Origin: Flectonema sp. DT1601
Lineage: Eukaryota
Assembly: GCA_964019425.1 (NCBI GenBank)
Contig: OZ025797.1
Span: 496,001 to 560,000, forward strand
Direction: 5' to 3'
Length of the DNA: 64,000 nt
Part shown: positions 15,757-44,923 of the stretch, one piece after another
Numbering within the stretch: position 1 is the stretch's first letter
Layout: each line of letters opens with the position of its first letter
Notes under the pieces: model-generated
What the model was told of the DNA's origin: nothing
The model's input: the letters and a program-made list of their open reading frames with translations, nothing else
Databases searched by the model: none
Translations under genes and position numbers: made by a program

Positions 15757-15969
15757 GGGCAAAGGGGTATTTCCTACACAAATGGTTTCAGAACGAGCGT
15801 TCAGCTGATGTGAGCATGGTACCATGTACCATTCAGCCATGACCGTTCTGAAAGACAGCTGGGTATCTCGATGCGTCCCGTAAGGTCCAGGGAACACCCC
15901 ACAGCCATTTTGGATTTTGTAATAAACGCTCGTTCTGAAACTATTTGTGTAGTAAACGCTAGTTTGCCC
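15757..15969. mobile_element. Mutator(MULE)-type MITE, 213 bp
   Basis: ~45-bp imperfect TIRs (GGGCAAA...CTACACAAATGGTTTCAGAACGAGCGTT / AACGCTCGTTCTGAAACTATTTGTGTAG...TTTGCCC) and a perfect 9-bp TSD TAAATAATA (15748-15756, 15970-15978). Confidence 0.9.
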
Positions 15970-16195
15970 TAAATAATATAAAGATTATTTATATTATTTC
16001 TCACACAGTCTGGTCCCATCTCAACCTTACACAATAATATGGGAATTATTTCATCTCTTTGCGATGTATGTTTTGTTGTTTTTTCTTTATTAAATTTTGG
16101 GAAAACCCCTAATTCCACAAAAATAGTTTGCGAAATCGCCAACTCATCACAAGAAAAAAACGTCCCTCCCTGGTATGAATAAAAGAGAGAAAGAA

Positions 16196-16234
16196 AAGCA
16201 ACGATTCTAAAGCTACAGTTTCTGTACTTTATTG
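16196..16234 (+). other. Genomic copy of the 39-nt euglenozoan spliced-leader exon (not an SL RNA gene)
   Basis: AAGCAACGATTCTAAAGCTACAGTTTCTGTACTTTATTG; 3 differences from the Diplonema SL as I recall it (AACCAACGATTTAAAAGCTACAGTTTCTGTACTTTATTG). Followed by GG, not the GT donor of an SL RNA gene. Confidence 0.92.
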
Positions 16235-16246
16235 GGGATACAAACT

Positions 16247-16607
16247 ATGAGAGACAACCTGAAGAGGTTAGTATCGGAGGCTATAAACCTCCTGAAGATG
16301 GTGGGAGATGATGGGATCCCCGAGTGTGAGAAAGAGAAACGGGTGGCGAATCTCCTGATGGAGGTTATCCAGTTCGTGACGGGGTCGGAAAAGAAGAAGA
16401 CCGGACACTCCCGAAGTGGGTAGTGGGATGGATGCGACCGCGACGGCCCCAACTGCGGGCAGCAATCAACCAGCAACAGAGGCGTCTACAGCTTCTAATC
16501 AACAGACAACATCGGCACCTAAACAACCAACGTTTTCGTTTTCGTTGCCTGTACCATCATCAACATCGACTAAACAAACCACAAGGGGGAATGCTAAAAC
16601 AAGCTAA
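16247..16607 (+). pseudogene. Short or frameshifted ORF inside the SL-bearing element, product unknown
   Basis: ATG follows the SL after a 12-nt spacer; 58-aa helical ORF (MRDNLKRLVSEAINLL...) to 16423, continued in another frame by a Ser/Thr/Ala-rich stretch; GC-richer than the flanks. Confidence 0.5.
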
Positions 16608-16996
16608 CCGGAATGGCATGTACACGGCGCGTGGGCGAGCACCCCCGAAATACAGTCTGAATCAGCTCTTCCTGTGTGCGGAAGTAGTCTCCAACAGCAT
16701 AAGTAGTAGCAGGCATCTTTTAATTTTTTTTGTGGAAAGCTGCAACAAAAAAACTTTGTAACAAAAGAATTTTTTGTGAAAAAAAAATCGGTCAAGTTCG
16801 AGTGCGGTAACTTTTTTCCCTAATATTTCGGCCGATGGTCAATTTTTCGGGTCAAGTTCGAGTCCTGGTGGATAACTTTTTTTGTAGGGAGTTGGCGATT
16901 TCGCAAAATATTATTTTTGTTGAATTAGAGGTTTTCCCATAAAATTTTACAAAAATTTGATTCAATCAACAAACACAACCACAGGAGGAATCAGAG

Positions 16997-18288
16997 ATGG
17001 AAGCAAATCTCATCGATAATAACGCGGCGGGGGTTGGTTCTGCCGGTTTACAGGCAGCAACAGTTGCTGGAGGTTTGTTCTTTTTTATAAAAAAGATTAT
17101 TTACCTTCAGTCAAGAGAAAGAACAATAAAACCACAAACATCACAGTGGCATTGTTTGTGTTCGGAGGAAAGCGTCCTCGATTTCGAATGAACAATCCGA
17201 AACTTAATAACTTTAAACCACGAGCAGTACCAGCAGCAGTGTACCCAGGACCAGGTCGAAGAGGATTGTTAATTGGAATAAATTATTTAAATACAAAAGC
17301 CGAGCTCTCTGGTTGTATCAACGACGTCAAGCGAATGGCACAACGAATGCAAGGAACGTACCAACTGTTAGTTCTTACGGATGACTCAAAGGATTCTAAC
17401 AGAGTCCCTACTAAGGATAATATTATGAGAGGATTAGTTTGGTTGGCAAGAGGAATGTTAGCAGGTGGAAAGGAGACAGCGTTTTTACACTTTTCAGGTC
17501 ACGGATCTCAACAAAAAGATAAAACTGGTGATGAGATTGACGGACTTGATGAAACAATCTGCCCAGTTGATTATTCAACATCAGGTATGATTACTGATAA
17601 TGACTTAAAGTCTGTACTGCTGACCAGAATACCAACTGGAAATAGACTTCTCGCAGTTATGGATTGCTGTCATTCTGGTACTGTACTTGATCTCCCATAC
17701 TACTGTCTTCCACAAGGTAATCCACATGATTATATAATGATGGGTGATCAAATGTCTGAAAAGAACCATCTTAATTGTGATGTTCTTATGATCAGCGGGT
17801 GTGCAGACGCTCAGACTTCTGCTGACGTCCATTCTGTTGGTGATCAGTTTATTGAATTGGAAGCTGAAAAATCTGCTGGTGGAGCTCTCACTTCCGCTCT
17901 TGTGATTACTATGTCTCAGAATCCAAGACAGAATCTGAAGATGTTGTTGCAGTCATTACGAAATAGTTTAGCTGCGAAAGGATTTAAACAGCTTCCTCAA
18001 ATATCTGGATCATTACCTTACGATACGAGGACTACTGTTTTTGATTTATTCCCTGAGTCTTTTAATGAAAACAATATTGGTACTCACAGGAGTGTCTCGC
18101 AATCATATTCCCATCAATCATACTCTCCTCGTTCAGTTTCTTATTATAACTCTCAGCGTCGGTCACAATATGACAGGCAGGCAGTTGTGTCACCTGCCTC
18201 TATGAGATCTGCGTACTCTGCTGCGACTATTCCTACTGATACAGTTGAACCGTATCCAAGTTCTCGAAATGGTATTCATAGATTCTAA
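16997..18288 (+). CDS. Type I metacaspase (C14B), join(16997..17072,17147..18288)
   Basis: GLLIGINY, LSGCINDV, catalytic HFSGHG and DCCHSG, SGCADAQTSAD. GT-AG intron 17073-17146 restores the frame and gives a hydrophobic N-terminus; Ser/Tyr-rich C-tail reminiscent of trypanosomatid MCA5. Confidence 0.9.
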
Positions 18289-19422: not shown

Positions 19423-22400
19423 ATGAAACGGTTATCAGCCATCGCTGGGGTGATGGCTTTCGGCTTGAATTCAGCATCCGCTCAATGCGACTCAACATTA
19501 GCGATTTGTGTTGGAACTGGTCCAGTTTGCACAGATGAGTGTGATGGAAACCTTTCTTGTCAACTAATGGCTAATACCTATGGATGTGCTAATGTTGTTA
19601 CTTACAGTAATTGTAATAACGGAAGATGCGATTGTACTTGTCCACCAGGAGCACCAGTTCCGGCGCCAACAGCTGCAAAGACTGGACCATGCACAGGTAT
19701 TACATCTGCTTGTTACTCTGCATTAGCTGATTGGCAAATTCAATCAGTCCTCGCTAAGCACAATGAATTCAGAGCATACCATGGAGCCTGCCCTCTCACT
19801 TATGATACGACCATTGCTGAGTACTCAAAAGGAAGCTCTGGTTTCGTCACCACTTGTACTAGTGGTTCTCTTACTCACAATGACCCTCCACAATACTCTA
19901 GAGGTAGACTTGGTGAAAACTTAGCCAGTGTTGGTGGAAATAAGGATGTCCACAACTGGGATCCTGCGGACGGTGTAAACAACTGGTATTGCAAGGAAGA
20001 AAAGTGTTGGAACTACGCCACCGCCAGGGAATCCGGTGTGACTGGTCACATGACACAAGTCGTATGGAAAGCAACGACTACAGTAGGATGTGGATTATGT
20101 CATGAAGTAAGTGGAGGATTTACAAATGTGTATCTAATTTGTAATTATGAGACTGCTGGTAACTTTGGAAATATGGGAACTGGAGGCGGCTATGCCACCA
20201 ACGTTGGCAATCCGGGAACTACTGCTTCAGGCTGTACTCCAACTGGAACAGACGAATGCATGCCAACTAATCCTTGTGGTACTGGTCAAACATGTAATGA
20301 TCCAGATACTTCAAACATGGGAGATTATACTTGTACGTGTGATAGTGATACTTCAATTATGGCAACTGGTGGTACAGCAACTTGTACAACTGATGAGTGT
20401 ACTTCAACAACTAATCCTTGTGGCACATCAAATGATCAAACTTGTAACGATCCAAATACTTCTGCAAACTCACTTCATGACTTCACCTGTACTTGCACTG
20501 CCGACACGAGTGTTGTGCAGACTGATGGCGCGGCCACCTGCACGAAAGATGAATGCTCGCCAAACCCGTGTGGCACAGGACAGACTTGTAATGATCCTTC
20601 TCAAACCCTCACCTCATTGCAAGATTATACCTGTACATGTACTAACGGGGTAGTTGCAACTGGTGCTGCAGTTGCTATGTGCGTAAGTGATGAGTGTACC
20701 TCCAATCCTTGTGGTACTGGAATGGATCAAACCTGTAATGATCCAAATACTGCTTCTAACTCACTTCATGACTTCACCTGTACCTGCACTGCCGACACGA
20801 GTGTTGTGCAGACTGACGCACCTGCCACCTGCACGAAGGACGAATGCTCACCAAACCCTTGTGGAAGTCAGACTTGCAATGACCCTGTCCAGACATTGGC
20901 ATCTCTTGGGGACTTCACCTGCACGTGCATGAACGGAGTCGTCGCTACTGGTACTGCAGCCACCTGTACAAATGATGAGTGTACGACAACAATGAACCCT
21001 TGTGGTACTGGAATGGATCAGACCTGTAATGATCCAAACACTGCAGCCAACACACTTCACGACTTTGTTTGTACCTGCACTGCGGACACCAGTATCACTC
21101 GTGTTGATGGGGCAGCGAGTTGCACAACGAATGAATGTGATTCTAACCCATGTGATGCTGCTCAAAGTCAAACTTGTAATGATCCTAACCAATCTGCTGG
21201 TTCAACTGGAGACTACACCTGCACGTGTCCTAATAATGTCGTAGCTACTGGTGGTCCTGTATCTCAATGTGTCACTGATGAATGTCAACCATCTCCGTGT
21301 GGAAGTGATCAGACTTGTAATGACCCCAACATGGCTTCAAATGTACTTCACGACTTCACCTGCACGTGTAACGCTGATACTTCCATTGTTCAGACTGATG
21401 GTGCAGCTAGCTGCACTAAGGATGAATGCCTTCCTAACAATCCGTGCGGAACTCAAACCTGCAATGACCCCGTCAAAACCTTTGGTTCTGTTAGAGACTA
21501 CACCTGCACGTGTACTAATGGAGTAGTAGCGACTGGTGCTTCCGCCACCTGTGACACTGATGAGTGTACCTCCAATCCTTGTGGTACTGGAATGGATCAA
21601 ACCTGTAATGATCCAAATACTGCTTCTAACTCACTTCATGACTTCACCTGTACCTGCACTGCCGACACGAGTGTTGTGCAGACTGACGCACCTGCCACCT
21701 GCACGAAGGACGAATGCTCACCAAACCCTTGTGGAAGTCAGACTTGCAATGACCCTGTCCAGACATTGGCATCTCTTGGGGACTTCACCTGCACGTGCAT
21801 GAACGGAGTCGTCGCTACTGGTGCTGCAGCCACCTGTACAAATGATGAGTGTACGACAACAATGAACCCTTGTGGTACTGGAATGGATCAGACCTGTAAT
21901 GATCCAAACACTGCAGCCAACACACTTCACGACTTTGTTTGTACCTGCACTGCGGACACCAGTATCACTCGTGTTGATGGGGCAGCGAGTTGCACAACGA
22001 ATGAATGTGATTCTAACCCATGTGATGCTGCTCAAAGTCAAACTTGTAATGATCCTAACCAATCTGCTGGTTCAACTGGAGACTACACCTGCACGTGTCC
22101 TAATAATGTCGTAGCTACTGGTGGTCCTGTATCTCAATGTGTCACTGATGAATGTCAACCATCTCCGTGTGGAAGTGATCAGACTTGTAATGACCCCAAC
22201 ATGGCTTCAAATGTACTTCACGACTTCACCTGCACGTGTAACGCTGATACTTCCATTGTTCAGACTGATGGTGCGGCAACGTGCTCAAGAGATGAATGCA
22301 CTCCAAACCCTTGTGATCTTAGTCAGTCACAGACTTGCAATGACCCGAGTCCGTTACCAAGTTCACTTAATGACTTCGTATGTGCCTGTCCGAATGGAGT

Positions 22401-25400
22401 CACTGCAACGGGTACTTCAGTAACAATGTGTATTGTCGATGAATGTACTGCAAACACAAATCCTTGCGGTACTGGAGGGGATCAAACTTGTAACGATCCA
22501 GAAACTTCATCAAACTCGAGAAATGACTTTGTCTGCACCTGCACTGCTGATACAAGTGTCACAAAAATCAACGGACCTGCCACCTGCACAAAAGACGAGT
22601 GCTCACCGAACCCTTGTGACACAGCTCAGATGCAAACCTGTAACGATCCGAACTCGTCACCTTCATCGACTGGTGACTTCGTCTGCAGCTGCCCCAACGG
22701 AGTTACCGCTACGGGTGCCTCTGTTGCGACTTGTGTTATGGATGAATGTGTGACCGTAATGAACCCTTGTGGTACTGGAATGGATCAGACCTGTAGTGAT
22801 CCAAACACAGCCTCCAACTCTCCAAATGACTTTGTCTGCACCTGCACAGCAGACACAACCGTCACTAAGACAAATGGCCCTGCCACCTGCATAAAAGACG
22901 AGTGCTCACCGAACCCTTGTGACACAGCTCAGATGCAGACTTGCAACGATCCGAACTCGTCACCTTCATCGACTGGTGACTACGTTTGCAGCTGCCCCAA
23001 CGGAGTTACCGCTACGGGTGCCTCTGTTGCGACTTGTGTTATGGATGAATGTGTGACCGTAATGAACCCTTGTGGTACTGGAATGGATCAGACCTGTAGT
23101 GATCCAAACACAGCCTCCAACTCTCCAAATGACTTTGTCTGCACCTGCACAGCAGACACAACCGTCACTAAGACAAATGGCCCTGCCACCTGCACAAAGG
23201 ACGAGTGCTCACCGAACCCTTGTGATACAGCTCAGATGCAGACTTGCAACGATCCGAACTCGTCACCTTCTTCGCTTGGTGACTTTGTGTGCAGCTGCCC
23301 CAACGGAGTTACCGCTACGGGTGCCTCTGTTGCTACTTGTGTTATGGATGAATGTGTGACCCTAATGAACCCTTGTGGTACTGGAATGGATCAAACCTGT
23401 AGTGATCCAAACACAGCCTCCAACTCTGTGAACGACTTTGTCTGCACCTGCACAGCAGACACAACCATCACTAAGACAAATGGCCCAGCCACCTGCACAA
23501 AAGACGAGTGCTCACCAAACCCTTGTGACACTGCTCAGATGCAAACCTGTAACGATCCGAACTCGTCACCTTCATCGACTGGTGACTACGTTTGCAGCTG
23601 TCCAAATGGTGTCACTGCCACGGGTGCCTCTGTTGCTACTTGTGTTGTGGATGAATGTGTGACCGTAATGAACCCTTGTGGTACTGGAATGGATCAGACC
23701 TGTAGTGATCCAAACACAGCCTCCAACTCTGTGAACGACTTTGTCTGCACCTGCACAGCAGACACAACCATCACTAAGACAAATGGCCCTGCCACCTGCA
23801 CAAAAGACGAGTGCTCACCGAACCCTTGTGACACTGCTCAGATGCAAACCTGTAACGATCCGAACTCGTCACCTTCATCCACGGGTGACTTCGTCTGCAG
23901 CTGCCCCAACGGAGTTACCGCTACGGGTGCCTCTGTTGCGACTTGTGTTATGGATGAATGTGTGACCGTAATGAACCCTTGTGGTACTGGAATGGATCAG
24001 ACCTGTAGTGATCCAAACACAGCCTCCAACTCTCCAAATGACTTTGTCTGCACCTGCACAGCAGACACAACCGTCACTAAGACAAATGGCCCTGCCACCT
24101 GCACAAAAGACGAGTGCTCACCGAACCCTTGTGACACAGCTCAGATGCAAACCTGTAACGATCCGAACTCGTCACCTTCATCGACTGGTGACTTCGTCTG
24201 CAGCTGCCCCAACGGAGTTACCGCTACGGGTGCCTCTGTTGCTACTTGTGTTATGGATGAATGTGTGACCGTAATGAACCCTTGTGGTACTGGAATGGAT
24301 CAGACCTGTAGTGATCCAAGCACGGCTTCTACTTCGGTAAATGACTTTGTTTGTACCTGCACTGCTGACGCAACCATCACTAAGACAAATGGTCCTGCCA
24401 CCTGCACAAAAGACGAGTGCTCACCGAACCCTTGTGACACAGCTCAGATGCAGACTTGCAACGATCCGAACTCGTCACCTTCATCGACTGGTGACTACGT
24501 TTGCAGCTGCCCCAACGGAGTTACCGCTACGGGTGCCTCTGTTGCTACTTGTGTTATGGATGAATGTGTGACCGTAATGAACCCTTGTGGTACTGGAATG
24601 GATCAAACCTGTAGTGATCCAAACACAGCCTCCAACTCTCCAAATGACTTTGTCTGCACCTGCACAGCGGATACAAGTATCACTAAGACTAATGGAGCAG
24701 CAACATGTTCGGATGACGAATGTTTAGCAATGCCGTGTGGTGGTCAGACTTGTAATGATCCAAACCCTGCACCATCATCTCTGATGGACTTCACCTGTAC
24801 TTGTGCTAATGGAATCGTAGCCACTGGTGGTACTGCTACTTGTGAATCTGATGAATGTTTAGCAGGGACTCCTTGTGGTACTGCACAGACTTGTAACGAT
24901 CCAAATATAGCTGCGAACAGTCTTCAAGACTTTGTATGTTCTTGTAATAATGATGCGATGTTAAGAAATACTGGAGGTCCTGTTGGTCTTTGTATTGATG
25001 ACGAGTGTAGTACTTCTGTTTGTGGTATGACTCAGGTTTGTGATGATCCAAATCAATCAGCTGGTAGTACTGGTGACTTTACTTGTACTTGTCCAGCACC
25101 AAATCAGGCTATTTCTGAAGTAGGAAGACCAGCAACATGTTCTTCTGGTACAATGGATGAATGTACTCCATCACCATGCGGTATGACTCAAGATTGTAAT
25201 GACCCTGATACAACAGTAATGAGTATGAATGATTACGTTTGTACTTGTCAGGTAGGTACTGGTAGTAGTATCGGATCTCCAGCTACCTGCACATTAAATG
25301 AATGTGACACCACACCATGTGGAAGTGGTCAAGATTGTAATGACCCTAACCAAGGTGCAACAAGCATAATGGATTACACCTGTACTTGTGTAGCACCAAC

Positions 25401-28400
25401 AACAGGAAGTTCTACAGCAGGTCCAGCAACTTGTGTACAGGATGAGTGTTCTGGAACTCCTCCTTGTACAGCTGGTCAGACCTGTACTGATCCAATTACA
25501 ACTCCTCAGTCACTGTTAGACTATACTTGTACTTGTAATAATGGTGTTGTTGCTATTGGAGCACCAGCAACATGTACTGTTGATGAATGTTTAGATCTTA
25601 CTAACCCTTGTGGTACTAATATGGATCAAATGTGTAATGATCCTAGTACAGCATCTAGTTCTCGAAATGATTTTATCTGCACGTGTAATGCTGACATGTC
25701 TATCACTCAGACTGGCGGTGCAGCTACCTGTTCTTCTAACGAGTGCGACTCCACTCCCTGCGATGCTGCACAGATGCAAACCTGCAATGATCCGAACCCT
25801 TCTCCTTCATCCTTTGGTGACTTCACCTGCAGCTGTCCAAACGGAGTTGTTGCAACTGGTGCTGCAGTTGGCATGTGTGTGAATGATGAGTGCGTAACCA
25901 CAATGAACGCCTGCGGTTCTGGTATGGATCAGACCTGCAGTGATCCAAGCACAGCCTCCAACTCCCTTCATGATTTTGTTTGCACCTGCACCGCCGACAC
26001 TTCAATCACTAACATTGATGGTGCAGCAACCTGTTCCACTGATGAGTGTGCTACTGGGCCTTGTGATGCTGCCCAGATGCAAACGTGCAATGACCCTGTC
26101 CAGACACTGGCGTCAACTGGTGACTTCACCTGCAGCTGTCCAAACGGAGTTGTTGCAACTGGTGCTGCAGTTGGCATGTGTGTTGATGATGAGTGCATGA
26201 CTACAATGAACCCTTGTGGTACTGGAATGGATCAGACCTGCAGTGATCCAAACACGGCCTCCAACTCCCTTCATGATTTTGTTTGCACCTGCACCGCCGA
26301 CACTTCAATCACCAACATTGATGGTGCAGCAACCTGTTCCAGCGATGAGTGTGCTACTGGGCCTTGTGATGCTGCCCAGATGCAAACGTGCAATGACCCT
26401 GTCCAGACACTGGCGTCAACTGGTGACTTCACCTGCAGCTGTCCAAACGGAGTTGTTGCAACTGGTGCTGCTGTTGGCATGTGTGTGAATGATGAGTGCG
26501 TAACCACAATGAACGCCTGCGGTTCTGGTATGGATCAGACCTGTAATGATCCAAACACGGCTTCCAATTCCCTTCATGATTTTGTTTGCACCTGCACCGC
26601 CGACACTTCAATCACCAACATTGATGGTGCAGCAACCTGTTCCACTGATGAGTGTGCTACTGGGCCTTGTGATGCTGCCCAGATGCAAACGTGCAATGAC
26701 CCTGTCCAGACACTGGCGTCAACTGGTGACTTCACATGCAGCTGTCCAAACGGAGTTGTTGCAACTGGTGCTGCTGTTGGCATGTGTGTGAATGATGAGT
26801 GCGTAACCACAATGAACGCCTGCGGTTCTGGTATGGATCAGACCTGCAGTGATCCAAGCACAGCCTCCAACTCCCTTCATGATTTTGTTTGCACCTGCAC
26901 CGCCGACACTTCAATCACTAACATTGATGGTGCAGCAACCTGTTCCAGCGATGAGTGTGCTACTGGGCCTTGTGATGCTGCCCAGATGCAAACGTGCAAT
27001 GACCCTGTCCAGACACTGGCGTCAACTGGTGACTTCACCTGCAGCTGTCCAAACGGAGTTGTTGCAACTGGTGCTGCAGTTGGCATGTGTGTTGATGATG
27101 AGTGCATGACTACAATGAACCCTTGTGGTACTGGAATGGATCAGACCTGTAGTGATCCAAACACGGCTTCTAATTCACTTCATGATTTCGTGTGTACCTG
27201 CACGGTAGACACTTCGATTACAAACATCGATGGACCTGCTGTCTGTAATAATAATGAGTGCGACTCTAATCCTTGTGATGCCACTCAGATGCAGACCTGC
27301 AATGATCCAATTCCTACTTTGAGCTCAATGGGTGACTTCACCTGCACCTGTCCAAACGGTGCCAGTGCAACTGGTGCTGCTGTTGGCATGTGTGTGAATG
27401 ATGAGTGCATGACTACAATGAACCCTTGTGGTTCTGGAATGGATCAGACTTGCAATGATCCAAACACGGCTTCTAATTCCCTTCACGACTTTATCTGTAC
27501 CTGTACAGTTGATACCTCAATCACTAATGTTGATGGCCCTGCGACTTGCAGTAACAACGAGTGCGTTCCTAATCCGTGTGACGTCGCCCAAATGCAGACC
27601 TGTAACGACCCGATAGCCACTCTGAGCTCAATGGGTGACTTCACCTGCAGCTGTCAAAACGGAGTTGTTGCAACTGGTGCTGCTGTTGGCATGTGTGTGA
27701 ATGATGAGTGCGTAACCACAATGAACGCCTGCGGACCTGGTATGGATCAGACCTGCAGTGATCCAAACACGGCTTCCAACTCCCTTCATGATTTTGTTTG
27801 TACCTGTACAGTTGATACCTCAATCACTAATGTTGATGGCCCTGCAGTATGTAGTAATGATGAGTGTATGAATAATCCATGTGATGCATCACAGATGCAG
27901 ACTTGTAGCGATCCAAACACTTCTTCAGCTGGTGACTTCATATGCAGCTGTCCAAATGGTGTGACTGCTACTGGCGGGAGTGTCAATAGTTGTGTCGTTG
28001 ATGAATGCACCCCATCACCATGTGGTGCTGATCAAGATTGTAATGATCCAAACGACGCGTCAAACTCTCTTCACGACTTCACTTGCACCTGCAAATCGAA
28101 TCCTTCGATTGTTAAGACTGACGGAGCAGCGAGGTGCTCAAAAGATGAATGCTCTGGAACCAATCCTTGTGGTACTCAAACGTGTAATGACCCAGATACT
28201 ACTTTAACATCTATCAGTGACTTCACTTGTACCTGCACTAACGGAGTTGTTGCTACTGGAGTACCAGCAACGTGTGAGAATGATGAATGCGCTACAGGTA
28301 CCCCTTGTGGTTCTCAGACATGTAGTGATCCAAACACAGCAGGTAATAGTATTCGAGACTTCACATGTACCTGCATGAATGATCCAACGATAGTAAGAGT

Positions 28401-31400
28401 TGGAGCACCAGCAACATGTGACAAAAATGAGTGTGCAAGCAATCCCTGTGGTCAGACTCAGACGTGCGTCGATCCTGTTCAGACTTTAAATTCTGTTTTA
28501 GATTTCACCTGCACGTGTCCAAACGGTGTTCGCACCACTGGAGCATCTGCTGTTTGTGAAACTGATGAATGTAACCCATCACCTTGTGGTGTAGATCAAG
28601 ATTGTAATGATCCGAATATGGCTGCTAATTCTCTTCATGACTTCAGTTGTATGTGTAAATCTGACCCAACAATTGTAAAAATTGATGGAGCTGCCAGATG
28701 TTCAAAGGATGAGTGTGCCAGTAATCCATGTGACATGGGACAGACCTGCAATGATCCGAACCCAACGTTGATTGACATCAATGACTTCACCTGCTCCTGT
28801 TCAAATGGAATTGTAGCAACAGGAGGAGCAGCTACTTGTGTTACGGACGAATGTGCATCAACTCCTTGTGGAATGGATCAAGATTGCTTCGAACCAAACG
28901 ACGCGTCAAACTCTCTTCACGACTTCACTTGCACCTGCAAATCGAATCCTTCGATTGTTAAAACTGACGGAGCAGCGAGGTGCTCAAAAGATGAATGCTC
29001 TGGAACCAATCCTTGTGGTACTCAAACGTGTAATGACCCAGATACTACTTTAACATCTATCAGTGACTTCACTTGTACCTGCACTAACGGAGTTGTTGCT
29101 ACTGGAGTACCAGCAACGTGTGAGAATGATGAATGCGCTACAGGTACCCCTTGTGGTTCTCAGACATGTAGTGATCCAAACACAGCAGGTAATAGTATTC
29201 GAGACTTCACATGTACCTGCATGAATGATCCAACGATAGTAAGAGTTGGAGCACCAGCAACATGTGACAAAAATGAGTGTGCAAGCAATCCCTGTGGTCA
29301 AACTCAGACTTGCGTCGATCCTGTTCAGACTTTAAATTCTGTTTTAGATTTCACCTGCACGTGTCCAAACGGTGTTCGCACCACTGGAGCATCTGCTGTT
29401 TGTGAAACTGATGAATGTAACCCATCACCTTGTGGTGTAGATCAAGATTGTAATGATCCGAATATGGCTGCTAATTCTCTTCATGACTTCAGTTGTATGT
29501 GTAAATCTGATCCAACAATTGTAAAAATTGATGGAGCTGCCAGATGTTCAAAGGATGAGTGTGCCAGTAATCCATGTGACATGGGACAGACCTGCAATGA
29601 TCCGAACCCAACGTTGATTGACATCAATGACTTCACCTGCTCCTGTTCAAATGGAATCGTCACAACTGGGGCTTCAGCAGTTTGTGAAGTTGATGAATGT
29701 TCTCCATCACCTTGTGGTACCGAACAGGATTGCAAAGATCCAAATGTAGCTGCCAACTCTCTCCACGACTTTACCTGCACTTGTAAGTCTGACTCAACTG
29801 TTGTAAAGACAGATGGCCCAGCTAGGTGCTCAAAAGATGAATGCTCTGGAACCAATCCTTGTGGTACTCAAACTTGTGATGATCCAAACACAAGTGTTCA
29901 GTCTCTAAATGACTACACTTGCACTTGTCCGAATGGAATGAGTGCAACCGCAGCTATCGCCAACTGCGGTACTGACGAGTGTGATGCCAACCCGTGCGGA
30001 CCTGGTGAGATTTGCAAAGACTTCGACTTCCTTTTACAGGGTGACTTTGACTGTGCGTGTCCATTTGGACTCCAACACAATGTTGGAGCACCTGTTGGAA
30101 ACAACTGCAATGAGTGCACACCAGGAAATGTAGGAAGTCCATGTACGTGGGTTGGTCATCCAGGAGTAGTTGAAACCTGTATCGATCCAAACCCAACAGC
30201 GGACAGTTTGAATGATTTTATTTGTGAATGTATGAATGGAGTCACGAAGGTTGGAGGCGCGGCAGACTGTGACCAAACAGGAGAGTGTTCAACCAGCCCT
30301 TGCGGTGACTACCAAGTTTGCAGCGATCCAGATATCTCAGTGACTGGTGATTTCATCTGCACTTGTAAAGTAGATCAATCAACAATGATTGGAGCACCAG
30401 TAGGTTCATGTAAATTAGATGAGTGTTCTCCTCCTGGTGGTGTTATTCCATGTGATCCAGGTACCCAGACTTGTAGAGATCCTAATACTTCACCAGGTTC
30501 CCTAAAGGACTTTATCTGTGAGTGTATGGATATTAATGGAATGATGTTTTATGGTACAGCTGTTGGTAAGCAAGCAGACTGTACTACTTACATGGTTTGT
30601 TATTTGTTGTTTTCATCATTTTTCTTCGTTAACCGCGTCGAGTTTCTTTTTAATTAATAAACGAAATAATCAGCCAACTGACGCTCCAGACACTGATGCC
30701 CCTCCACCAGTTCCAACACCCGTTCCAAACACCAATTCTCCGCCAGGAACGATGCAGACACCAGTTCCTGACTCTGATGCTCCGGTGACTGTGAACACAG
30801 CCTCACCGTCAACACCTGTGCCAAACACCAACTCACCAGCTGGCAGCACGCAGACTCCTGTTCCTGATACTATGGCACCTGTTCCAACTCAGTCACCGTC
30901 AACACCTGTGCCAGACACTAACTCACCGGCTGGCAGCACGCAGACTCCTGTTCCTAATACTATGGCACCTGTTCCAACTCAGTCACCGTCAACACCTGTG
31001 CCAGACACTAACTCACCAGCTGGCAGCACGCAGACTCCTGTTCCTAATACTAGGGCACCTGTTCCAACTCAGTCACCGTCAACACCTGTGCCAGACACTA
31101 ACTCACCGGCTGGCAGCACGCAGACTCCTGTTCCTAATACTATGGCACCTGTTCCAACTCAGTCACCGTCAACACCTGTGCCAGACACTAACTCACCAGC
31201 TGGCAGCACGCAGACTCCTGTTCCTAATACTAGGGCACCTGTTCCAACTCAGTCACCGTCAACACCTGTGCCAAACACCAACTCACCAGCTGGCAGCACG
31301 CAGACTCCTGTTCCTGATACTATGGCACCTGTTCCAACTCAGTCACCGTCAACACCTGTGCCAGACACTAACTCACCGGCTGGCAGCACGCAGACTCCTG

Positions 31401-32305
31401 TTCCTAATACCAGGGCACCTGTTCCAACTCAGTCACCGTCAACACCTGTGCCAGACACTAACTCACCAGCTGGCAGCACGCAGACTCCTGTTCCTAATAC
31501 TGTGGCACCTGTTCCAACTCAGTCACCGTCAACACCTGTGCCAGACACTAACTCACCGGCTGGCAGCACGCAGACTCCTGTTCCTAATACTATGGCACCT
31601 GTTCCAACTCAGTCACCGTCAACACCTGTGCCAGACACTAACTCACCAGCTGGCAGCACGCAGACTCCTGTTCCTAATACTGTGGCACCTGTTCCAACTC
31701 AGTCACCGTCAACACCTGTGCCAGACACTAACTCACCAGCTGGCAGCACGCAGACTCCTGTTCCTAATACTATGGCACCTGTTCCAACTCAGTCACCGTC
31801 AACACCTGTGCCAGACACTAACTCACCACCTGGCAGCACGCAGACTCCTATTCCGAATACCACCAGTCCGACAATTGCTGGCGATAGTCCTGCGGTATGT
31901 CTTTGTTTTGTTTTGTATTCTGATATACTGATCTGTGCGTGGTCTGTATTCACAACTTTAATCAATTAGTAATATTATCTCTTCTTGAGAGATAATACAA
32001 ATATTCTAAAACAGGACCTTTATGGTGCTGGAAATACTGAAGATAGTAAGTCAGGTACCCCACTTTGGATATTTATTGTAATCGCAGTAGCGGTTCTTCT
32101 CTTGTGCGGTATCCTTGCTGGTTTTGCGATGAGGAAGAATGGAAACAAAGATGATGTGGATTTTGATGAATTCATGGAGAACGTTGATCATGCCACGGCT
32201 AACCAAAATCAAAACCAACGTGGTTTTGTACCACTGCAAGAATACAGTCCTCACGCACAGTACAATTTTCAAAATGGAGCATCCTGGCAGGTGGGAACTA
32301 TTTAG
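19423..32305 (+). CDS. Giant (~4,227 aa) type I membrane protein: signal peptide, CAP/SCP domain, ~70 six-Cys EGF-like repeats, mucin stalk, TM, short tail; join(19423..30594,30674..31894,32015..32305)
   Basis: CAP motifs HNEFRAYHG, GENLA, GHMTQVVW, LICNY..AGN. Two phase-0 GT-AG introns (30595-30673, 31895-32014) join three ORFs in frame. TM segment LWIFIVIAVAVLLLCGILAGFAM. Confidence 0.9.
20251..30583 (+). repeat. Coding tandem array of ~150-bp EGF-like units with higher-order 303-, 846- and 870-bp duplications
   Basis: Unit DEC..PC...QTC.DP........D[FY].C.C......G...C; near-identical nucleotide blocks at these offsets. Confidence 0.95.
30803..31860 (+). repeat. Coding 90-bp minisatellite (~12 units) encoding a 30-aa Pro/Thr/Ser mucin repeat
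   Basis: APVPTQSPSTPVPDTNSPAGSTQTPVPNT[M/R/V] repeated with few substitutions. Confidence 0.95.
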
Positions 32306-37417: not shown

Positions 37418-38945
37418 ATGGCAACTGACGGAAAGGACCATTTGTCCATCGTGATCTGCGGTCACGTTGACAGTGGAAAGTCGACCACCACCGGACGTCT
37501 CCTCTTCGAGTTGGGAGGAATCCCAGAGCGTGAGATGGAGAAGTTGAAGGCCGAGGCCGAGCGTCTTGGAAAGCAATCGTTCGCCTTCGCGTTCTACATG
37601 GACCGTCAGAAGGAAGAGCGTGAGAGAGGTGTGACCATCGCCTGTACCACCAAGGAGTTCTTCACAGACAAGTGGCACTACACCGTCATCGACGCCCCAG
37701 GACACAGAGATTTCATCAAGAACATGATCACTGGAGCCTCCCAGGCCGATGTTGCTCTTCTCATGGTTCCAGCTGACGGTAACTTCGTCAGTGCCATCGC
37801 CCGTGGAAACCACAAGGCCGGAGAGATCCAGGGACAAACCCGTCAGCACGCTCGTCTTATCAACTTGTTGGGAGTAAAGCAGTTGATCGTCGGAATCAAC
37901 AAGATGGACTGTGATGTCGCCAAGTACAAGGAGGAGAGATTCACTGAGATCAAGGAAGAGATGAAGAGTATGCTTATCAAGACTGGATGGAAGAAGGACT
38001 TCGTTGAGAAGTCTGTTCCAGTCATCCCAATCTCAGGATGGATCGGAGACAACTTGTTGAAGAAGTCTGTGAAGATGGACTGGTGGAAGGGACAGGAAGT
38101 CCTCATCGGAGCTGATGAGAAGCTTCACATCAACACCCTCAGAGATGCCTTGAACGACATGGTTCGTATGCCTGAGCGTAAGAACGACGCCCCAATGAGA
38201 ATGCCTGTCTCAGGAGTCTACAAGGTTTGTGATTATTTTTATCGTGTTAGGAGTTGCTGTCTGTTTCAAGGGTGACGTTGTTGAATAGCAAGAAAAGCAA
38301 AATTCCAAAAAAATACAAATACAAATACAAATACAGATTAAGGGAGTTGGTGATGTCATCACTGGACGTGTTGAGCAGGGAATTGTCAAGCCTGGTGAGG
38401 AAGTTCTCTTCCTTCCAACCCACACTGCCGCCAACGCGTGCACTGGAAAGGTTTTCACCTGTGAAATGCACCACAAGCGTACTGACGAGGCCAAGGCCGG
38501 AGACAACGTTGGTCTTAACGTCAAGGGACTTAACAAGGATAACATGCCTCGTACCGGAGACGTGATGGTGTACAAGAAGGACGGATCCTTGAAGGAGGCC
38601 GGAACCTTCACTGCCCAGGTTCAGATCCTTGACCACCCTGGTGAGTTGAAGGTTGGATACACTCCAGTATGCTTCGTGCGTACCGGAAGATCCGCTGTGA
38701 GAATGACCCAGTTGGTATGGAAGATGGGTAAAGAGACCGGAGGAAAGAAGGCTGAGGAACCCCACTGCCTGAAGGCTAACGAGATGGCTGAGGTCGTGTT
38801 CACCCCACAACAGCCACTTGTTGTTGACTCCTTCAAGAACTGCGAGGGTCTTTCCCGTGTCGCTATCATGGAGGGTAACGGTGTTGTCATGCTTGGAAAG
38901 GTCACCAAGACCACTGAGAAGGTTGCCGCCACCAAGAAGAAGTAA
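37418..38945 (+). CDS. EFL: Elongation factor-like GTPase EFL, copy 1, join(37418..38224,38337..38945), 471 aa
   Basis: GHVDSGKSTT, LFELGGIPERE, FAFAFYMDRQKEERERGVTIACTTKEFFT and ARGNHKAGEIQGQTRQHARL are EFL rather than eEF1A signatures; GT-AG intron 38225-38336. Confidence 0.95.
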
Positions 38946-39455
38946 GAACAAGGCCAGCTTTTCATATTTATAATCAATTTCCTCATCCCCATCTCCTCCC
39001 TGAGTTCGCTGATCTCTTTAATTAGTTTTCGGATTTACTGAAGCTTTATTATTGGGTTATTTGATTTTATTTTTAATTGGGGTATTTTCATTTTTTATTT
39101 TGATCTTTTTTTATTTTTTTTTTTGGTTCTCTTATTTAGTTCCTATTTTCTTTATTCTCCTGTCCTCGCTTTCTCTTTTGCAATTTTTTTTTCTTTTTGC
39201 CTTGGATCACCTTTATAGAAATACAAAAACATGTTTATATTTTTCAGTTTCATTTGTTGAGCAGGTCCACATAAAATGATATAGAAAAGATAGTAAAAAT
39301 AGTTGCAAAGGAAACTCTCAGAGAAACAAACAAGTTATAACAGTGTTGCTTAATGTTGTCAAACTAGCTCAGCATATTTACAAGCAGTAGTCTAAACACA
39401 TAACAACCAGATTTATCTAAACCTTTGTTTTCAATTTTAGTCAGTTTCAAGTTAA

Positions 39456-41136
39456 CCCTTACACCACCGTAAGAACCCCCAAAACAACGGGTCCAGAATT
39501 TTACTGTTTTTTCAAAAAGAGAAAGGGTACCCCCCCAGAAAACCTATGTACCAAACCGGACACAACTACTACTACGGGTCAATAGCACCTGTCACCCGCA
39601 CACCTAACGGTGCGTACCTTGGTGCGTTGTTGCACATTCAGCAGAACTAACAAAGTCGGCAGTGTCGCACTAACGTACTCAACGGTTTCCATTCATAGCA
39701 GCTGCATGTTATTCCCTTCCCGTATTTTGAAAGGGATGATGTTTCTGCGCAACATCATGTCAGAGGGAGCCCAAGTAAAGAGAATGCCAAATCACGGCCG
39801 ATATTAAATCGAAAAATCAGATTTTTTCCTGTTTTTTTGAGCTTGTAAAAGCCCTCTGTGGTAGCGGAAAATACACAAACAACCTGCATCATGGCACAGC
39901 AGGTTCAGACACACAGGAGGATTACCACATCGGGGTTGATAAGCTCGAAAAATATAAATAACATCGATCCCAGATCATGGAACTTCATTAGTAACAGTGC
40001 AGCTACTCAGATCAGACCGTGTTGGGCTGGATCTATAAACTTCCACCTCTTTACCCCACCAGCCTGGCATACTGGATTTTTGGGAAGTTGGCGGTTTAGG
40101 AACATCACAAGGAATTTTGTAGTTTTGGAGGATGTGATACCTTTTGAAACATGGGTAAGCACAAAGCGCTTGGTTGCATCGCTCACAGTAATCCAGTGAT
40201 TGTGCGCGCTTTGTGCGAACTGCGCACTGACGAGCCTTTTCCATCTTTCCGGGGTAGTGTCCCAAAGCTGGCTTGAGGCGATCAGGGATTGATACTGATT
40301 GTGGAGAAGGCGGTACTGATGGTGTTATTAATAGTGTTGGTGCCGCTCTATAAGCTGCCCAAACAACGCCAATTTGAAGGATAAGAATCTCTAGATTCAC
40401 TACTATCCGTCCAAATTCCACCATGCCCACGTCGCATCAGGATAAAGGAATTCAAGATACACGTCTCCACTTCGGATCCTCATGCTCGGGAGCAGGTAAT
40501 ATCGCAGAGAAGTGTAAGTTCCTCTGTGAAAACACTTGCGGAAAGAACAACAGGGGGGTCAACAGCATGTCATTCAAACCCCAGGAATCCCCCAGGTTAG
40601 ATTTTATTGGGAGGCGCGTCAGTAGTGTTGTGCCAACAAAGGCCCTTAGCTCCTGTGTGTACTGGTTTTAAATTTTCTTCCCTCTGTGAGGCATAGACCT
40701 CAGAGTTTTTCTTCATCAGCTGGAAAACTGATTATCTGAAGAAAAACTCAAAAACCTGCAGCTCCGACTTGCCTGCAACTCTAATCTTTAACGTTTCTTG
40801 GAAACGTGTTTTATTCTTGGTAACCCTTGTCACCTCCCCCCCATTTGGGGTCAGATACTTCGTCAAGTGACGAATCGGAGCACACCGACGATGGATTAAC
40901 AAATACTGTTGCATCCTCATCAGAACTGTGGACCGACATATTTCCCAAGTTGATTTTGGCCAGCTATAGCAAATGGAGAATTTACCATTTAATAAAAACT
41001 ATTGCGGCGCAACACGTAAGGAACATAAAAGACATCGCAATAATACCTCTCCCGTGAAATCGTTGTACTCAGAAATGCAAAATTTTCACTTAGCAAAAAA
41101 AAAAATTTTTTTTTTCAGACTCCGGTGGTGTAAGGG
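39456..41136 (-). mobile_element. Internally deleted piggyBac transposon (1,681 bp)
   Basis: TTAA TSD at 39452-39455 and 41137-41140; perfect 14-bp TIR CCCTTACACCACCG; transposase remnants inside. Confidence 0.93.
39975..40939 (-). pseudogene. piggyBac transposase remnant
   Basis: Acidic N-terminus (MSVHSSDED...), VFEFFF, ELRAFVG..LL...DSW....LTP...LHF and C-terminal Cys-rich RQCAV...YCERCNQALCAYPCFKRYH; frameshifts and stops, and too short to contain the DDD core. Confidence 0.8.
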
Positions 41137-41593
41137 TTAATTACAATCCCTCAGCACGGGTTCACCTTTTTTTTGAGACGACATTCTCAAGAGCAAGATG
41201 GAAGTCATTTTAAATGACTAAAAAAGGGACGCAGAGATCAGACAAGCGGACATCTCGTCGCTGTTGTGACAGCGGAGGGCGACTAACATATTCCCAACCT
41301 ACAAACAGTTTTGTATTGTAGTTTTTAGGACTTCAAGAAAGATTGATAGAAGAACAAGAATACTTACCAACTTATGTGTTGCTATTTTGCCATTTGCTCC
41401 TTTACGCGGATAAGGACTTTATCTTTTTATTTATTTCTCTCTAGGCTCCAACGAAAGAAATGTAAATCATTTATAGGTGCGGCAAAATGGAAAACTAAGA
41501 TATAATAAGTTCGGCACTAATATAATCTCCGTGAGGATCTGTTTGATTCCAGTTATTCCCTTCCACTCATCAGAGTAACTCACAAACCACAAA

Positions 41594-43155
41594 ATGGCAA
41601 CTGACGGAAAGGACCATTTGTCCATCGTGATCTGCGGTCACGTTGACAGTGGAAAGTCGACCACCACCGGACGTCTCCTCTTCGAGTTGGGAGGAATCCC
41701 AGAGCGTGAGATGGAGAAGTTGAAGGCCGAGGCCGAGCGTCTTGGAAAGCAATCGTTCGCCTTCGCGTTCTACATGGACCGTCAGAAGGAAGAGCGTGAG
41801 AGAGGTGTGACCATCGCCTGTACCACCAAGGAGTTCTTCACAGACAAGTGGCACTACACCGTCATCGACGCCCCAGGACACAGAGATTTCATCAAGAACA
41901 TGATCACTGGAGCCTCCCAGGCCGATGTTGCTCTTCTCATGGTTCCAGCTGACGGTAACTTCGTCAGTGCCATCGCCCGTGGAAACCACAAGGCCGGAGA
42001 GATCCAGGGACAAACCCGTCAGCACGCTCGTCTTATCAACTTGTTGGGAGTAAAGCAGTTGATCGTCGGAATCAACAAGATGGACTGTGATGTCGCCAAG
42101 TACAAGGAGGAGAGATTCACTGAGATCAAGGAAGAGATGAAGAGTATGCTTATCAAGACTGGATGGAAGAAGGACTTCGTTGAGAAGTCTGTTCCAGTCA
42201 TCCCAATCTCAGGATGGATCGGAGACAACTTGTTGAAGAAGTCTGTGAAGATGGACTGGTGGAAGGGACAGGAAGTCCTCATCGGAGCTGATGAGAAGCT
42301 TCACATCAACACCCTCAGAGATGCCTTGAACGACATGGTTCGTATGCCTGAGCGTAAGAACGACGCCCCAATGAGAATGCCTGTCTCAGGAGTCTACAAG
42401 GTATGGTGATCTTTTGAATTGTTTAGGGGCTAGATGTCCCTTTTTACACAGTATCGATCCGTGGGAATCTTTCTTTGGTTATCTTTGCGTCACATTTTCT
42501 GTGAGCTCTGCTGCTGCTCATTCAAACAAACAAACACTGAAAACAGATTAAGGGAGTTGGTGATGTCATCACTGGACGTGTTGAGCAGGGAATTGTTAAG
42601 CCTGGTGAGGAAGTTCTCTTCCTTCCAACCCACACTGCCGCCAACGCGTGCACTGGAAAGGTTTTCACCTGTGAAATGCACCACAAGCGTACTGACGAGG
42701 CCAAGGCCGGAGACAACGTTGGTCTTAACGTCAAGGGACTTAACAAGGATAACATGCCTCGTACCGGAGACGTGATGGTGTACAAGAAGGACGGATCCTT
42801 GAAGGAGGCCGGAACCTTCACTGCCCAGGTTCAGATCCTTGACCACCCTGGTGAGTTGAAGGTTGGATACACTCCAGTATGCTTCGTGCGTACCGGAAGA
42901 TCCGCTGTGAGAATGACCCAGTTGGTATGGAAGATGGGTAAAGAGACCGGAGGAAAGAAGGCTGAGGAACCCCACTGCCTGAAGGCTAACGAGATGGCTG
43001 AGGTCGTGTTCACCCCACAACAGCCACTTGTTGTTGACTCCTTCAAGAACTGCGAGGGTCTTTCCCGTGTCGCTATCATGGAGGGTAACGGTGTTGTCAT
43101 GCTTGGAAAGGTCACCAAGACCACTGAGAAGGTTGCCGCCACCAAGAAGAAGTAA
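41594..43155 (+). CDS. EFL: EFL copy 2, join(41594..42400,42547..43155)
   Basis: Protein identical to copy 1; different 146-nt intron (42401-42546) at the same position. Confidence 0.95.
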
Positions 43156-43395
43156 GAACAAGGTTGAAATAATTATTACTTCCCCTCCCCTGTTTTCTTG
43201 CTGCAGACTTGACATCTGCAACAAGTATTTTTCGTTCTTTTTTATCCGCTTTCTCACAAGTACTTTTATTTTGTTTGGTGGTGTTCGTCATCCCAAACGT
43301 ATTTTCGAATCAGAGCTGGGTAGGAGTTTTAGCGAACATTTGCAATAAAAACTGAAATCACTTTACCTCCTGCAGACTAGTTCGCAAACTACAAA

Positions 43396-44923
43396 ATGGC
43401 AACTGACGGAAAGGACCATTTGTCCATCGTGATCTGCGGTCACGTTGACAGTGGAAAGTCGACCACCACCGGACGTCTCCTCTTCGAGTTGGGAGGAATC
43501 CCAGAGCGTGAGATGGAGAAGTTGAAGGCCGAGGCCGAGCGTCTTGGAAAGCAATCGTTCGCCTTCGCGTTCTACATGGACCGTCAGAAGGAAGAGCGTG
43601 AGAGAGGTGTGACCATCGCCTGTACCACCAAGGAGTTCTTCACAGACAAGTGGCACTACACCGTCATCGACGCCCCAGGACACAGAGATTTCATCAAGAA
43701 CATGATCACTGGAGCCTCCCAGGCCGATGTTGCTCTTCTCATGGTTCCAGCTGACGGTAACTTCGTCAGTGCCATCGCCCGTGGAAACCACAAGGCCGGA
43801 GAGATCCAGGGACAAACCCGTCAGCACGCTCGTCTTATCAACTTGTTGGGAGTAAAGCAGTTGATCGTCGGAATCAACAAGATGGACTGTGATGTCGCCA
43901 AGTACAAGGAGGAGAGATTCACTGAGATCAAGGAAGAGATGAAGAGTATGCTTATCAAGACTGGATGGAAGAAGGACTTCGTTGAGAAGTCTGTTCCAGT
44001 CATCCCAATCTCAGGATGGATCGGAGACAACTTGTTGAAGAAGTCTGTGAAGATGGACTGGTGGAAGGGACAGGAAGTCCTCATCGGAGCTGATGAGAAG
44101 CTTCACATCAACACCCTCAGAGATGCCTTGAACGACATGGTTCGTATGCCTGAGCGTAAGAACGACGCCCCAATGAGAATGCCTGTCTCAGGAGTCTACA
44201 AGGTTTGTGATTATTTTTATCGTGTTAGGAGTTGCTGTCTGTTTCAAGGGTGACGTTGTTGAATAGCAAGAAAAGCAAAATTCCAAAAAAATACAAATAC
44301 AAATACAAATACAGATTAAGGGAGTTGGTGATGTCATCACTGGACGTGTTGAGCAGGGAATTGTCAAGCCTGGTGAGGAAGTTCTCTTCCTTCCAACCCA
44401 CACTGCCGCCAACGCGTGCACTGGAAAGGTTTTCACCTGTGAAATGCACCACAAGCGTACTGACGAGGCCAAGGCCGGAGACAACGTTGGTCTTAACGTC
44501 AAGGGACTTAACAAGGATAACATGCCTCGTACCGGAGACGTGATGGTGTACAAGAAGGACGGATCCTTGAAGGAGGCCGGAACCTTCACTGCCCAGGTTC
44601 AGATCCTTGACCACCCTGGTGAGTTGAAGGTTGGATACACTCCAGTATGCTTCGTGCGTACCGGAAGATCCGCTGTGAGAATGACCCAGTTGGTATGGAA
44701 GATGGGTAAAGAGACCGGAGGAAAGAAGGCTGAGGAACCCCACTGCCTGAAGGCTAACGAGATGGCTGAGGTCGTGTTCACCCCACAACAGCCACTTGTT
44801 GTTGACTCCTTCAAGAACTGCGAGGGTCTTTCCCGTGTCGCTATCATGGAGGGTAACGGTGTTGTCATGCTTGGAAAGGTCACCAAGACCACTGAGAAGG
44901 TTGCCGCCACCAAGAAGAAGTAG
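43396..44923 (+). CDS. EFL: EFL copy 3, join(43396..44202,44315..44923)
   Basis: Protein identical; intron 44203-44314 reads identical to that of copy 1. Confidence 0.95.

What the first reader, a model, noticed from the sequence alone, without database searches (positions are those of the whole stretch)
16099..16938. DNA transposon that carries its own spliced leader in front of its ORF
Seen: a TIR/TSD-bounded element contains a full-length 39-nt SL exon 50 bp inside the left TIR, followed by a 12-nt spacer and an ATG, with no GT donor or SL intron. Established: euglenozoan mRNAs get the SL only by trans-splicing; the SL-associated elements I know (SLACS/CZAR/CRE) are non-LTR retroelements inserted into SL RNA genes, a different arrangement. 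Inference: either (a) a Pack-MULE-like capture of a reverse-transcribed mature mRNA, or (b) a transposon family that hard-codes the SL so a transcript from a TIR promoter resembles a trans-spliced mRNA and is expressed independent of orientation within the gene cluster. The complete SL and lack of a clear poly(A) tract leave (b) open.
Basis: partly seen in the sequence, partly recalled or inferred. Interest (0 to 1): 0.88.

Follow-up and report, generated by a model that had tools for sequence, protein, structure and literature searches.

The report
Leader-tagged retroelement relic inside a transposon
A small Mutator-like DNA element in a likely diplonemid protist does contain the 39-letter tag normally spliced onto messenger RNAs, but the tag heads a broken fragment of a different, multicopy gene family (likely a retrotransposon, at least one other copy of which also appears tagged), so it is most likely a dead passenger and not a device of the DNA transposon.

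Summary
The anatomy is real: 840-bp GGG...CCC element, 47-bp inverted ends (44/47), 10-bp target duplication (9/10), and a 39-nt spliced leader (SL) matching diplonemid-type SL genes at 38/39. The headline is not supported. The ORF behind the SL is the first ~144 codons of a 549-aa protein with at least 51 relatives in three clusters from what is likely the same assembly; here it is broken by a frameshift, a stop and 3' loss. Its predicted tandem RRM-like fold and dispersed, partly broken copies fit a LINE ORF1; no reverse transcriptase was seen. Another copy (P0010) reads as a 5'-cut SL after a lysine run, with no sign of this TIR; two more start at the SL's last codon position. So the SL travels with this family, not the TIRs. 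A 25-codon frame from the right TIR on the opposite strand may be the transposon's own gene (unproven). One twist: the 12-nt 'spacer' resembles the start of the SL RNA intron (4 of 1,235 controls), so this copy may hold unspliced SL RNA with a damaged donor. No genome or reads were available to count copies.

The parts
16089..16098 (.). left copy of a 10-bp target-site duplication
   Evidence: 9 of 10 identical to 16939-16948
16099..16145 (+). left terminal inverted repeat, core (looser match runs to about 16163)
   Evidence: 44/47 to the right arm with one 3-nt gap
16146..16195 (.). 50 nt between TIR core and SL: inner TIR-like A-run, then unassigned purine-rich DNA
   Evidence: sequence; no match to the upstream DNA of SL-gene-like loci
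16196..16234 (+). full 39-nt spliced-leader exon, one substitution at position 3
   Evidence: 38/39 to L054, L096, L097; its 3' 22-mer marks 5' ends of transcript-like contigs
16235..16246 (+). 12-nt spacer: either a short 5' UTR or a decayed start of the SL RNA intron without its GT
   Evidence: 11/13 plus one gap to the L096 intron start, controls 0/118, 16/20,000, 4/1,235; at best 4 mismatches to the last 12 nt of the family's 57-nt leader, reached by 73 of 1,235 controls
16247..16643 (+). decayed 5' fragment (residues 1 to about 144) of a 549-aa multicopy protein, likely a LINE ORF1; frameshifting deletion near 16390, 5-codon in-frame deletion, stop at 16605-16607
   Evidence: 45/48 and 75/83 residues identical to P0001
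16642..16716 (-). 25-codon frame opening at an ATG 23 nt after a pyrimidine-rich YAG; candidate stub of the TIR element's own gene (transposase likeness recalled, not shown)
   Evidence: best of six frames by a host codon model but 332 of 5,000 shuffles and 64 of 766 GC-matched controls reach it; no Pfam or PDB match
16721..16888 (.). subterminal region with short repeats of the inner TIR T-run and a perfect 14-nt direct repeat (16790-16803, 16850-16863)
16889..16938 (-). right terminal inverted repeat, core
16939..16948 (.). right copy of the target-site duplication
15757..15969 (.). second, SL-less MULE-like miniature element 130 bp upstream: GGG...CCC ends, 47-nt arms, perfect 9-bp duplication
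   Evidence: single SL match in window

Best explanation
The spliced leader most likely entered the genome by reverse transcription, as the front end of a likely LINE retrotransposon copy, and is now a dead passenger inside a non-autonomous Mutator-like element. Steps: (1) shown: the ORF is a broken 5' piece of a dispersed family of about 550-aa proteins. (2) Inferred: that family is a LINE ORF1 whose RNA receives the SL, so complete insertions begin with all or part of it. (3) Inferred: one such copy landed in, or was copied by gap repair into, a MULE-like element just inside one TIR and antisense to that element's own gene. (4) Inferred: an internal deletion joined ORF1 codon ~144 to a short piece of the MULE's other end, removing the rest of both; later mutations broke the frame. 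For this copy the SL came either from trans-spliced retroelement RNA with a 12-nt leader or from a jump of the reverse transcriptase onto unspliced SL RNA; I put these near even.
For: Family: clusters of 13, 20 and 18 near-identical proteins on many contigs; the longest contig of P0001 has the same length as that of two window genes; relatives in a Flectonema neradi transcriptome, one labelled as second ORF of its transcript. SL on other copies: of 13 cluster-1 members, 3 extend upstream through the same 19 residues; P0010 continues with five residues that match the last 15 SL nt without mismatch, then a lysine run that does not match the rest of the SL; P0003 and P0004 start at the position of the SL's last codon. 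P0010's 71 upstream residues do not resemble this TIR arm (118 of 300 shuffles score as high). Fold: three predicted beta-alpha-beta RRM/ferredoxin-like domains; RRMs are typical of LINE ORF1 (PMC4120745, passages). 6 of 44 members have a foreign N-terminus and intact C-terminus. Decay: frameshift, stop, truncation. Host element: GGG...CCC, 10-bp duplication, AT-rich site as in MULEs (PMC9168764, passages); a second such element next door has no SL.
Against: No reverse transcriptase or poly(A) was seen next to any copy: DNA of the other copies could not be read, and a search for longer fused forms found none (weak). Fold matches stay under Z 8 and tie with ACT domains; no CCHC knuckle is visible in the alignments. 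The SL evidence on other copies rests on protein translations: one five-residue match and two start positions; the fourth extended member, P0050, shows no SL reading in frame. 7 of 44 members instead end early, so truncations may be frameshifts. This copy's 12-nt spacer differs from the 57-nt leader of those copies and no AG can stand before their last 12 nt. The transposase stub is unproven.
Confidence: 0.7

Rival explanations
1. A LINE subfamily hard-codes its 5' end from the SL RNA gene: exon plus a 12-nt intron stub whose GT donor is broken, so the leader stays on the element's RNA directly before the ORF1 start. The window holds a decayed member nested in a MULE-like element.
For: Spacer resembles the SL intron start; the join falls exactly at the ATG with a 2-nt overlap, which selection would explain better than a random jump; spacer fits the family's usual leader poorly.
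Against: One copy only; the comparison is post hoc and against other species' SL genes; 12 nt is a normal leader length here (candidate acceptors 11-24 nt before several host ATGs); none of 44 members shows the short in-frame extension this junction would allow; three cluster-1 copies show a different, non-GT junction.
Confidence: 0.1
2. One reading: an autonomous MULE carries two opposed genes, a transposase from one TIR and this RRM protein with a hard-coded SL from the other; the window holds a deletion derivative.
For: The two frames are convergent; MuDR and Abermu carry a second gene opposite to the transposase (PMC9168764, passages); full-length SL inside the TIR.
Against: P0010 has a cut SL, a lysine run and no TIR-like upstream reading; spacer length differs between copies; neighbouring MULE-like element lacks an SL; relatives in another diplonemid look like ordinary transcript ORFs.
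Confidence: 0.08
3. DNA-level Pack-MULE capture: gap repair stitched a piece of an SL RNA gene (exon plus intron start) to a piece of the ORF family at a short microhomology.
For: Intron-like spacer; Pack elements join pieces at 1-36 bp microhomologies and can hold pieces of several genes (PMC8277862 and PMC9168764, passages).
Against: Needs the join to hit the start codon by chance; upstream 50 nt do not match SL-gene upstream DNA of L054, L096, L097 (other species); SL already accompanies other copies.
Confidence: 0.08
4. One reading: a retrocopy of a host mRNA from an expanded RNA-binding-protein gene family.
For: Many intact members; expressed relatives; no reverse transcriptase seen.
Against: Dispersed near-identical copies in three subfamilies with many broken members, no Pfam family, no relatives outside diplonemid-type sources fit a mobile element better.
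Confidence: 0.04

Closest known systems
SL-relic retrocopies of dinoflagellates (PMC12014239, passages; PMC5585692 and PMC6050394, search listing only)
   Same: A leader added to RNA is found in DNA directly before an ORF, whole or cut, and marks reverse transcription.
   Different: Here the parent is likely a retroelement ORF1, the host is likely a diplonemid, the copy lies within TIRs, and the junction may include SL-intron sequence.
Pack-MULE / Pack-TIR elements and nested insertions in MULEs (PMC9168764, PMC8277862, PMC3169594; passages)
   Same: Short element, GGG...CCC inverted ends, 7-12 bp duplication, foreign gene fragment inside, no intact transposase.
   Different: Cargo is RNA-derived and from a likely retrotransposon, not shown to be a host gene; TIRs are short (47-65 bp); copy number unknown.
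CRE clade: SLACS, CZAR, CRE1 (PMC5814959, PMC12278014; passages)
   Same: Retroelement sequence joined to SL sequence in a euglenozoan; Diplonema papillatum has many proteins annotated as SLACS-like (PMC10161547).
   Different: Those insert between nt 11 and 12 of the exon inside SL gene arrays; here the exon is whole, upstream of the ORF, and outside any array.
U6/L1-type chimeric retrocopies (recalled; no paper read)
   Same: Small nuclear RNA sequence fused 5' of LINE sequence, if the spacer is SL intron.
   Different: The small RNA would be cut 12-14 nt into its intron and joined at the ORF1 start; mechanism untested.

Membership tests
Mutator-like element (non-autonomous) | Terminal inverted repeats with GGG...CCC ends | tested here: met
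   44/47 arms, GGG...CCC; such ends reported for a barley MULE (PMC9168764)
Mutator-like element (non-autonomous) | Target-site duplication of 7-12 bp | tested here: met
   10 bp, 9 of 10 identical; chance 7 of 1,182 pure-AT 10-mers
Mutator-like element (non-autonomous) | Relation to a MULE DDE transposase (remnant or autonomous partner) | tested here: inconclusive
   25-codon minus-strand frame; no Pfam or PDB hit, codon signal not significant; MuDR N-terminal likeness is recalled
Mutator-like element (non-autonomous) | Several copies or an empty site | not testable with these tools
   No genome held, no runs listed; one other GGG...CCC element with loosely similar arms in the window
Pack-MULE | Captured fragment of a gene found elsewhere in the genome | tested here: met
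   Residues 1-144 of P0001 family; same longest-contig length as window genes
Pack-MULE | Cargo is a host gene, captured by the element and moved with it | tested here: inconclusive
   Parent is multicopy and mobile-looking; nested insertion plus deletion cannot be told from capture with one copy
Non-LTR retrotransposon (LINE) ORF1 | RRM domain(s) in a first ORF | tested here: inconclusive
   Three predicted RRM/ferredoxin-like domains, best Z 7.4 (rmsd 2.7, 76 aligned) and 7.1 (rmsd 2.3, 67 aligned), tied with ACT domains
Non-LTR retrotransposon (LINE) ORF1 | Downstream ORF with endonuclease and reverse transcriptase, 3' poly(A) | not testable with these tools
Non-LTR retrotransposon (LINE) ORF1 | Dispersed copies with variable 5' truncation | tested here: inconclusive
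   51 members in 3 clusters; 6 of 44 read have foreign N-termini, 7 of 44 end early; P0010 has a cut SL; protein-level only
SL-tagged retrocopy of a trans-spliced RNA | SL exon in DNA directly before an ORF | tested here: met
SL-tagged retrocopy of a trans-spliced RNA | No SL intron after the exon; junction at an acceptor of the parent | tested here: inconclusive
   No GT, but spacer resembles intron start; no AG possible before the last 12 nt of the parent leader, possible before the last 11
CRE clade (SLACS/CZAR/CRE) | Insertion between nt 11 and 12 of the SL exon in an SL RNA gene | tested here: not met
   Exon is uninterrupted, single in the window, no SL array; definition from PMC5814959
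SL RNA gene | Exon, GT donor, full intron with Sm site and terminator | tested here: not met
   GG at the donor; similarity to L054, L096, L097 ends 14 nt after the exon

The most novel reading that the evidence does not exclude
A diplonemid mobile-element lineage (the LINE-like ORF family, or a two-gene MULE carrying it) has built the spliced leader into its own DNA from the SL RNA gene, keeping a 12-nt intron stub with a disabled donor, so that its RNA looks trans-spliced without being spliced and is expressed whatever the direction of the surrounding gene cluster.
Probability: 0.15. Interest if true: 0.8.

Novelty: new member of a known kind. Interest (0 to 1): 0.36.

Why it matters
As most likely read, this is one dead nested fragment. 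Its value is as a pointer: it exposes an unnamed family of about 550-aa RRM-like proteins, likely LINE ORF1s, whose copies appear to begin with the spliced leader, which would mean that diplonemid retroelements use host trans-splicing instead of the promoter-ribozyme 5' end of trypanosome ingi/L1Tc (PMC5814959, passages). SL-headed copies would also give exact 5' ends and a marker for retroposition in these genomes. I found no paper on SL-headed retroelements or SL-bearing DNA transposons in diplonemids. If the intron-like stub recurs in many copies, the case becomes a mobile element that hard-codes the leader, which would be surprising and easy to test.

Tried and rejected
No whole genome held. 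Rfam: five chance-level matches, best E 0.63. Pfam on the three internal frames and on the family: nothing above cut-off. PDB by sequence: nothing under E 0.37. Foldseek on PDB: no match at E 0.001; on viral models two uncharacterised proteins with TM under 0.2; no LINE ORF1 structure appeared among the top 50 rows of either wide search, which excludes nothing. ESM Atlas gave no answer. No DNA relatives of the ORF in metagenome, prokaryote or viral contigs, no TIR 19-mer in viral contigs. No longer fused ORF1-ORF2 protein among 7,986 scored candidates. Other copies of the TIR or SL in the window: none. The 109-codon ORF 16432-16761 is an off-frame reading. The repeated 14-mer looks like a polymerase III B box (recalled motif) but lies among subterminal repeats; not pursued. 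CRE-type insertion and intact SL gene rejected (membership table). My first phase check of the neighbouring metacaspase exon was off by one base and was redone. Earlier findings by sequence and place gave nothing. Supplements of PMC10161547: 7 files searched, no SL passage; parts not held as text may describe SL-bearing repeats.

Full report
Observation. The element spans 16099-16938. Its outer 47 nt pair at 44/47 with a 3-nt gap, both ends read GGG inward, and the 10-bp flanks agree at 9 of 10; 10 of 63,990 window 10-mers and 7 of 1,182 pure-AT 10-mers match the left flank that well. A scan of the window for GG...CC ends with an 8-11 bp duplication returned this element and one low-complexity pair. 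The SL at 16196-16234 is single in the window. The 39-mer equals the exon of L054, L096 and L097 at 38/39. With protein relatives in Flectonema neradi this makes the host a likely diplonemid.

The ORF is cargo, and dead. The 58-codon ORF at 16247 found two longer proteins among 6 candidates. The window matches P0001 (549 aa) at 45/48 and 75/83 residues in two frames, over residues 1 to about 144, with a frameshifting deletion near 16390, a 5-codon deletion also seen in P0006, and a stop at 16605. P0001, P0002 and P0032 head clusters of 13, 20 and 18 sequences from unnamed ENA contigs, of which I read 13, 15 and 15. The longest contig of P0001 has the same length as that of two window genes, so the family is likely in this assembly. 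A full profile search found only 6 representatives. Two models (mean pLDDT 63.5 and 74.9) show three beta-alpha-beta domains that match RRM and ACT folds at Z 7.4 or less: compatible with a LINE ORF1 (PMC4120745, passages) but not proof. It is not a transposase by Pfam. I could not see an ORF2. Of 44 members aligned, 6 have a foreign N-terminus with intact C-terminus and 7 end early, so protein data alone do not establish 5' truncation.

The SL goes with that family. In this window the SL's last codon is in frame with the ATG, so protein extensions of other copies show their upstream DNA. Four of the 44 members extend upstream of the start. P0003, P0004 and P0010 share 19 extra residues. P0010 goes on with five residues that match the last 15 SL nt without mismatch, then lysines that do not match the rest; that 5-mer occurs once in 127,996 six-frame residues of the window, at the SL itself. 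P0003 and P0004 begin at the position of the SL's final TTG. P0050, from the third cluster, shows no SL reading in frame. The upstream 71 residues of P0010 do not resemble either TIR arm or the neighbouring element. A cut SL after an A-rich run is what reverse transcription of leader-bearing RNA leaves; this is inference from translations, not from DNA.

The TIR element's own gene probably faced the other way. From the right TIR, the minus strand gives a pyrimidine-rich YAG, 23 nt, an ATG at 16716 and 25 codons that end where ORF1 homology ends. They recall the start of a MuDR-type transposase (recalled, not from a call). Tests were weak: no Pfam or PDB hit; best of six frames under a host codon model, but reached by 332 of 5,000 shuffles and 64 of 766 GC-matched stretches. 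A second GGG...CCC element with a perfect 9-bp duplication lies at 15757-15969 and has no SL; its arm aligns loosely with this one (35 of 53 columns, no control).

A result against the simple reading. The 12-nt spacer differs from the 57-nt leader of the three copies: at best 4 mismatches to its last 12 nt, a level reached by 73 of 1,235 controls, and no AG can precede those 12 nt. It resembles the SL RNA intron start more: 11 of 13 with one gap to L096; 0 of 118 transcript-type junctions, 16 of 20,000 random positions and 4 of 1,235 pre-ATG positions score as high. I noticed this by eye, used three reference 13-mers from other organisms (L067 left out of the references), and 12 nt is also a normal leader length here. 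So it is about even whether this copy came from trans-spliced RNA or from unspliced SL RNA joined at the start codon. The second case keeps open a lineage that hard-codes the leader.

Mechanism. Likely order: a LINE-like RNA gains the SL; reverse transcription inserts it just inside one TIR of a MULE-like element, antisense to that element's gene, or gap repair copies it there (PMC8277862, passages); a deletion removes most of both; point changes break the rest. Whether the composite ever moved is unknown; the 9/10 duplication and unequal arms suggest age. Confidence 0.70.

Known and new. It works like a Pack-MULE or nested insertion holding an SL-tagged retrocopy, as known from dinoflagellates (PMC12014239, passages). 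It is not a CRE-type insertion (PMC5814959, PMC12278014, passages) nor an SL gene. MULE ORFs and many LINEs are on record for Diplonema papillatum (PMC10161547, passages and supplement rows); PMC12621601 (passages) and PMC3169594 (passages) added nothing on leader-bearing elements. Searches listed no paper on SL-headed elements in diplonemids; the library lacks most subscription papers. Three unchecked notes of this scan report SL-headed LINEs in dinoflagellates and Euglena; they agree but are not evidence.

Verdict. Real anatomy, wrong owner: interest 0.36, new member of a known kind; 0.15 chance of the hard-coded-leader reading, worth 0.8 if true.

Noticed in passing
window 15757-15969: 213-bp miniature inverted-repeat element, GGG...CCC ends, 47-nt arms 85% complementary, perfect 9-bp target duplication; 130 bp from the element studied.
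   Followed up: partly
window 16997-18288: The metacaspase gene (Pfam Peptidase_C14) likely starts at 16997 with a 38-nt GT-AG intron (17073-17110) in phase. The element ends only 58 nt upstream, within the zone where its trans-splicing signals should lie; the nearest YAG has few pyrimidines before it.
   Followed up: partly
L067 3001-3320: Three SL-like exons 121 and 175 nt apart on a 12.8-kb contig, each with a different 5' half and followed by GT; looks like a compact cluster of variant SL genes.
   Followed up: no
L007, L016, L058, L083 5' ends: Transcript-like contigs with two SL pieces in tandem; either relic leaders from retrocopies or library or assembly artefacts.
   Followed up: no
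window 37418-44923: Three similar EF-1alpha-type gene copies, each split into two ORFs, probably by introns (three of six ORFs scanned).
   Followed up: no
window 19423-30657: 3,744-codon cysteine-rich repeat protein with a signal-like start, followed by a proline/threonine-rich repeat ORF at 30551-31969.
   Followed up: no
window 16790-16803 and 16850-16863: Perfect 14-nt direct repeat resembling a polymerase III B box (recalled motif) in the subterminal region.
   Followed up: no
proteins P0032, P0037-P0050 and P0029, P0030, P0036: A third subfamily (18 members, 474 aa) and three Flectonema neradi transcript ORFs belong to the same unnamed RRM-like family; P0036 is labelled as the second ORF of its transcript.
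   Followed up: partly
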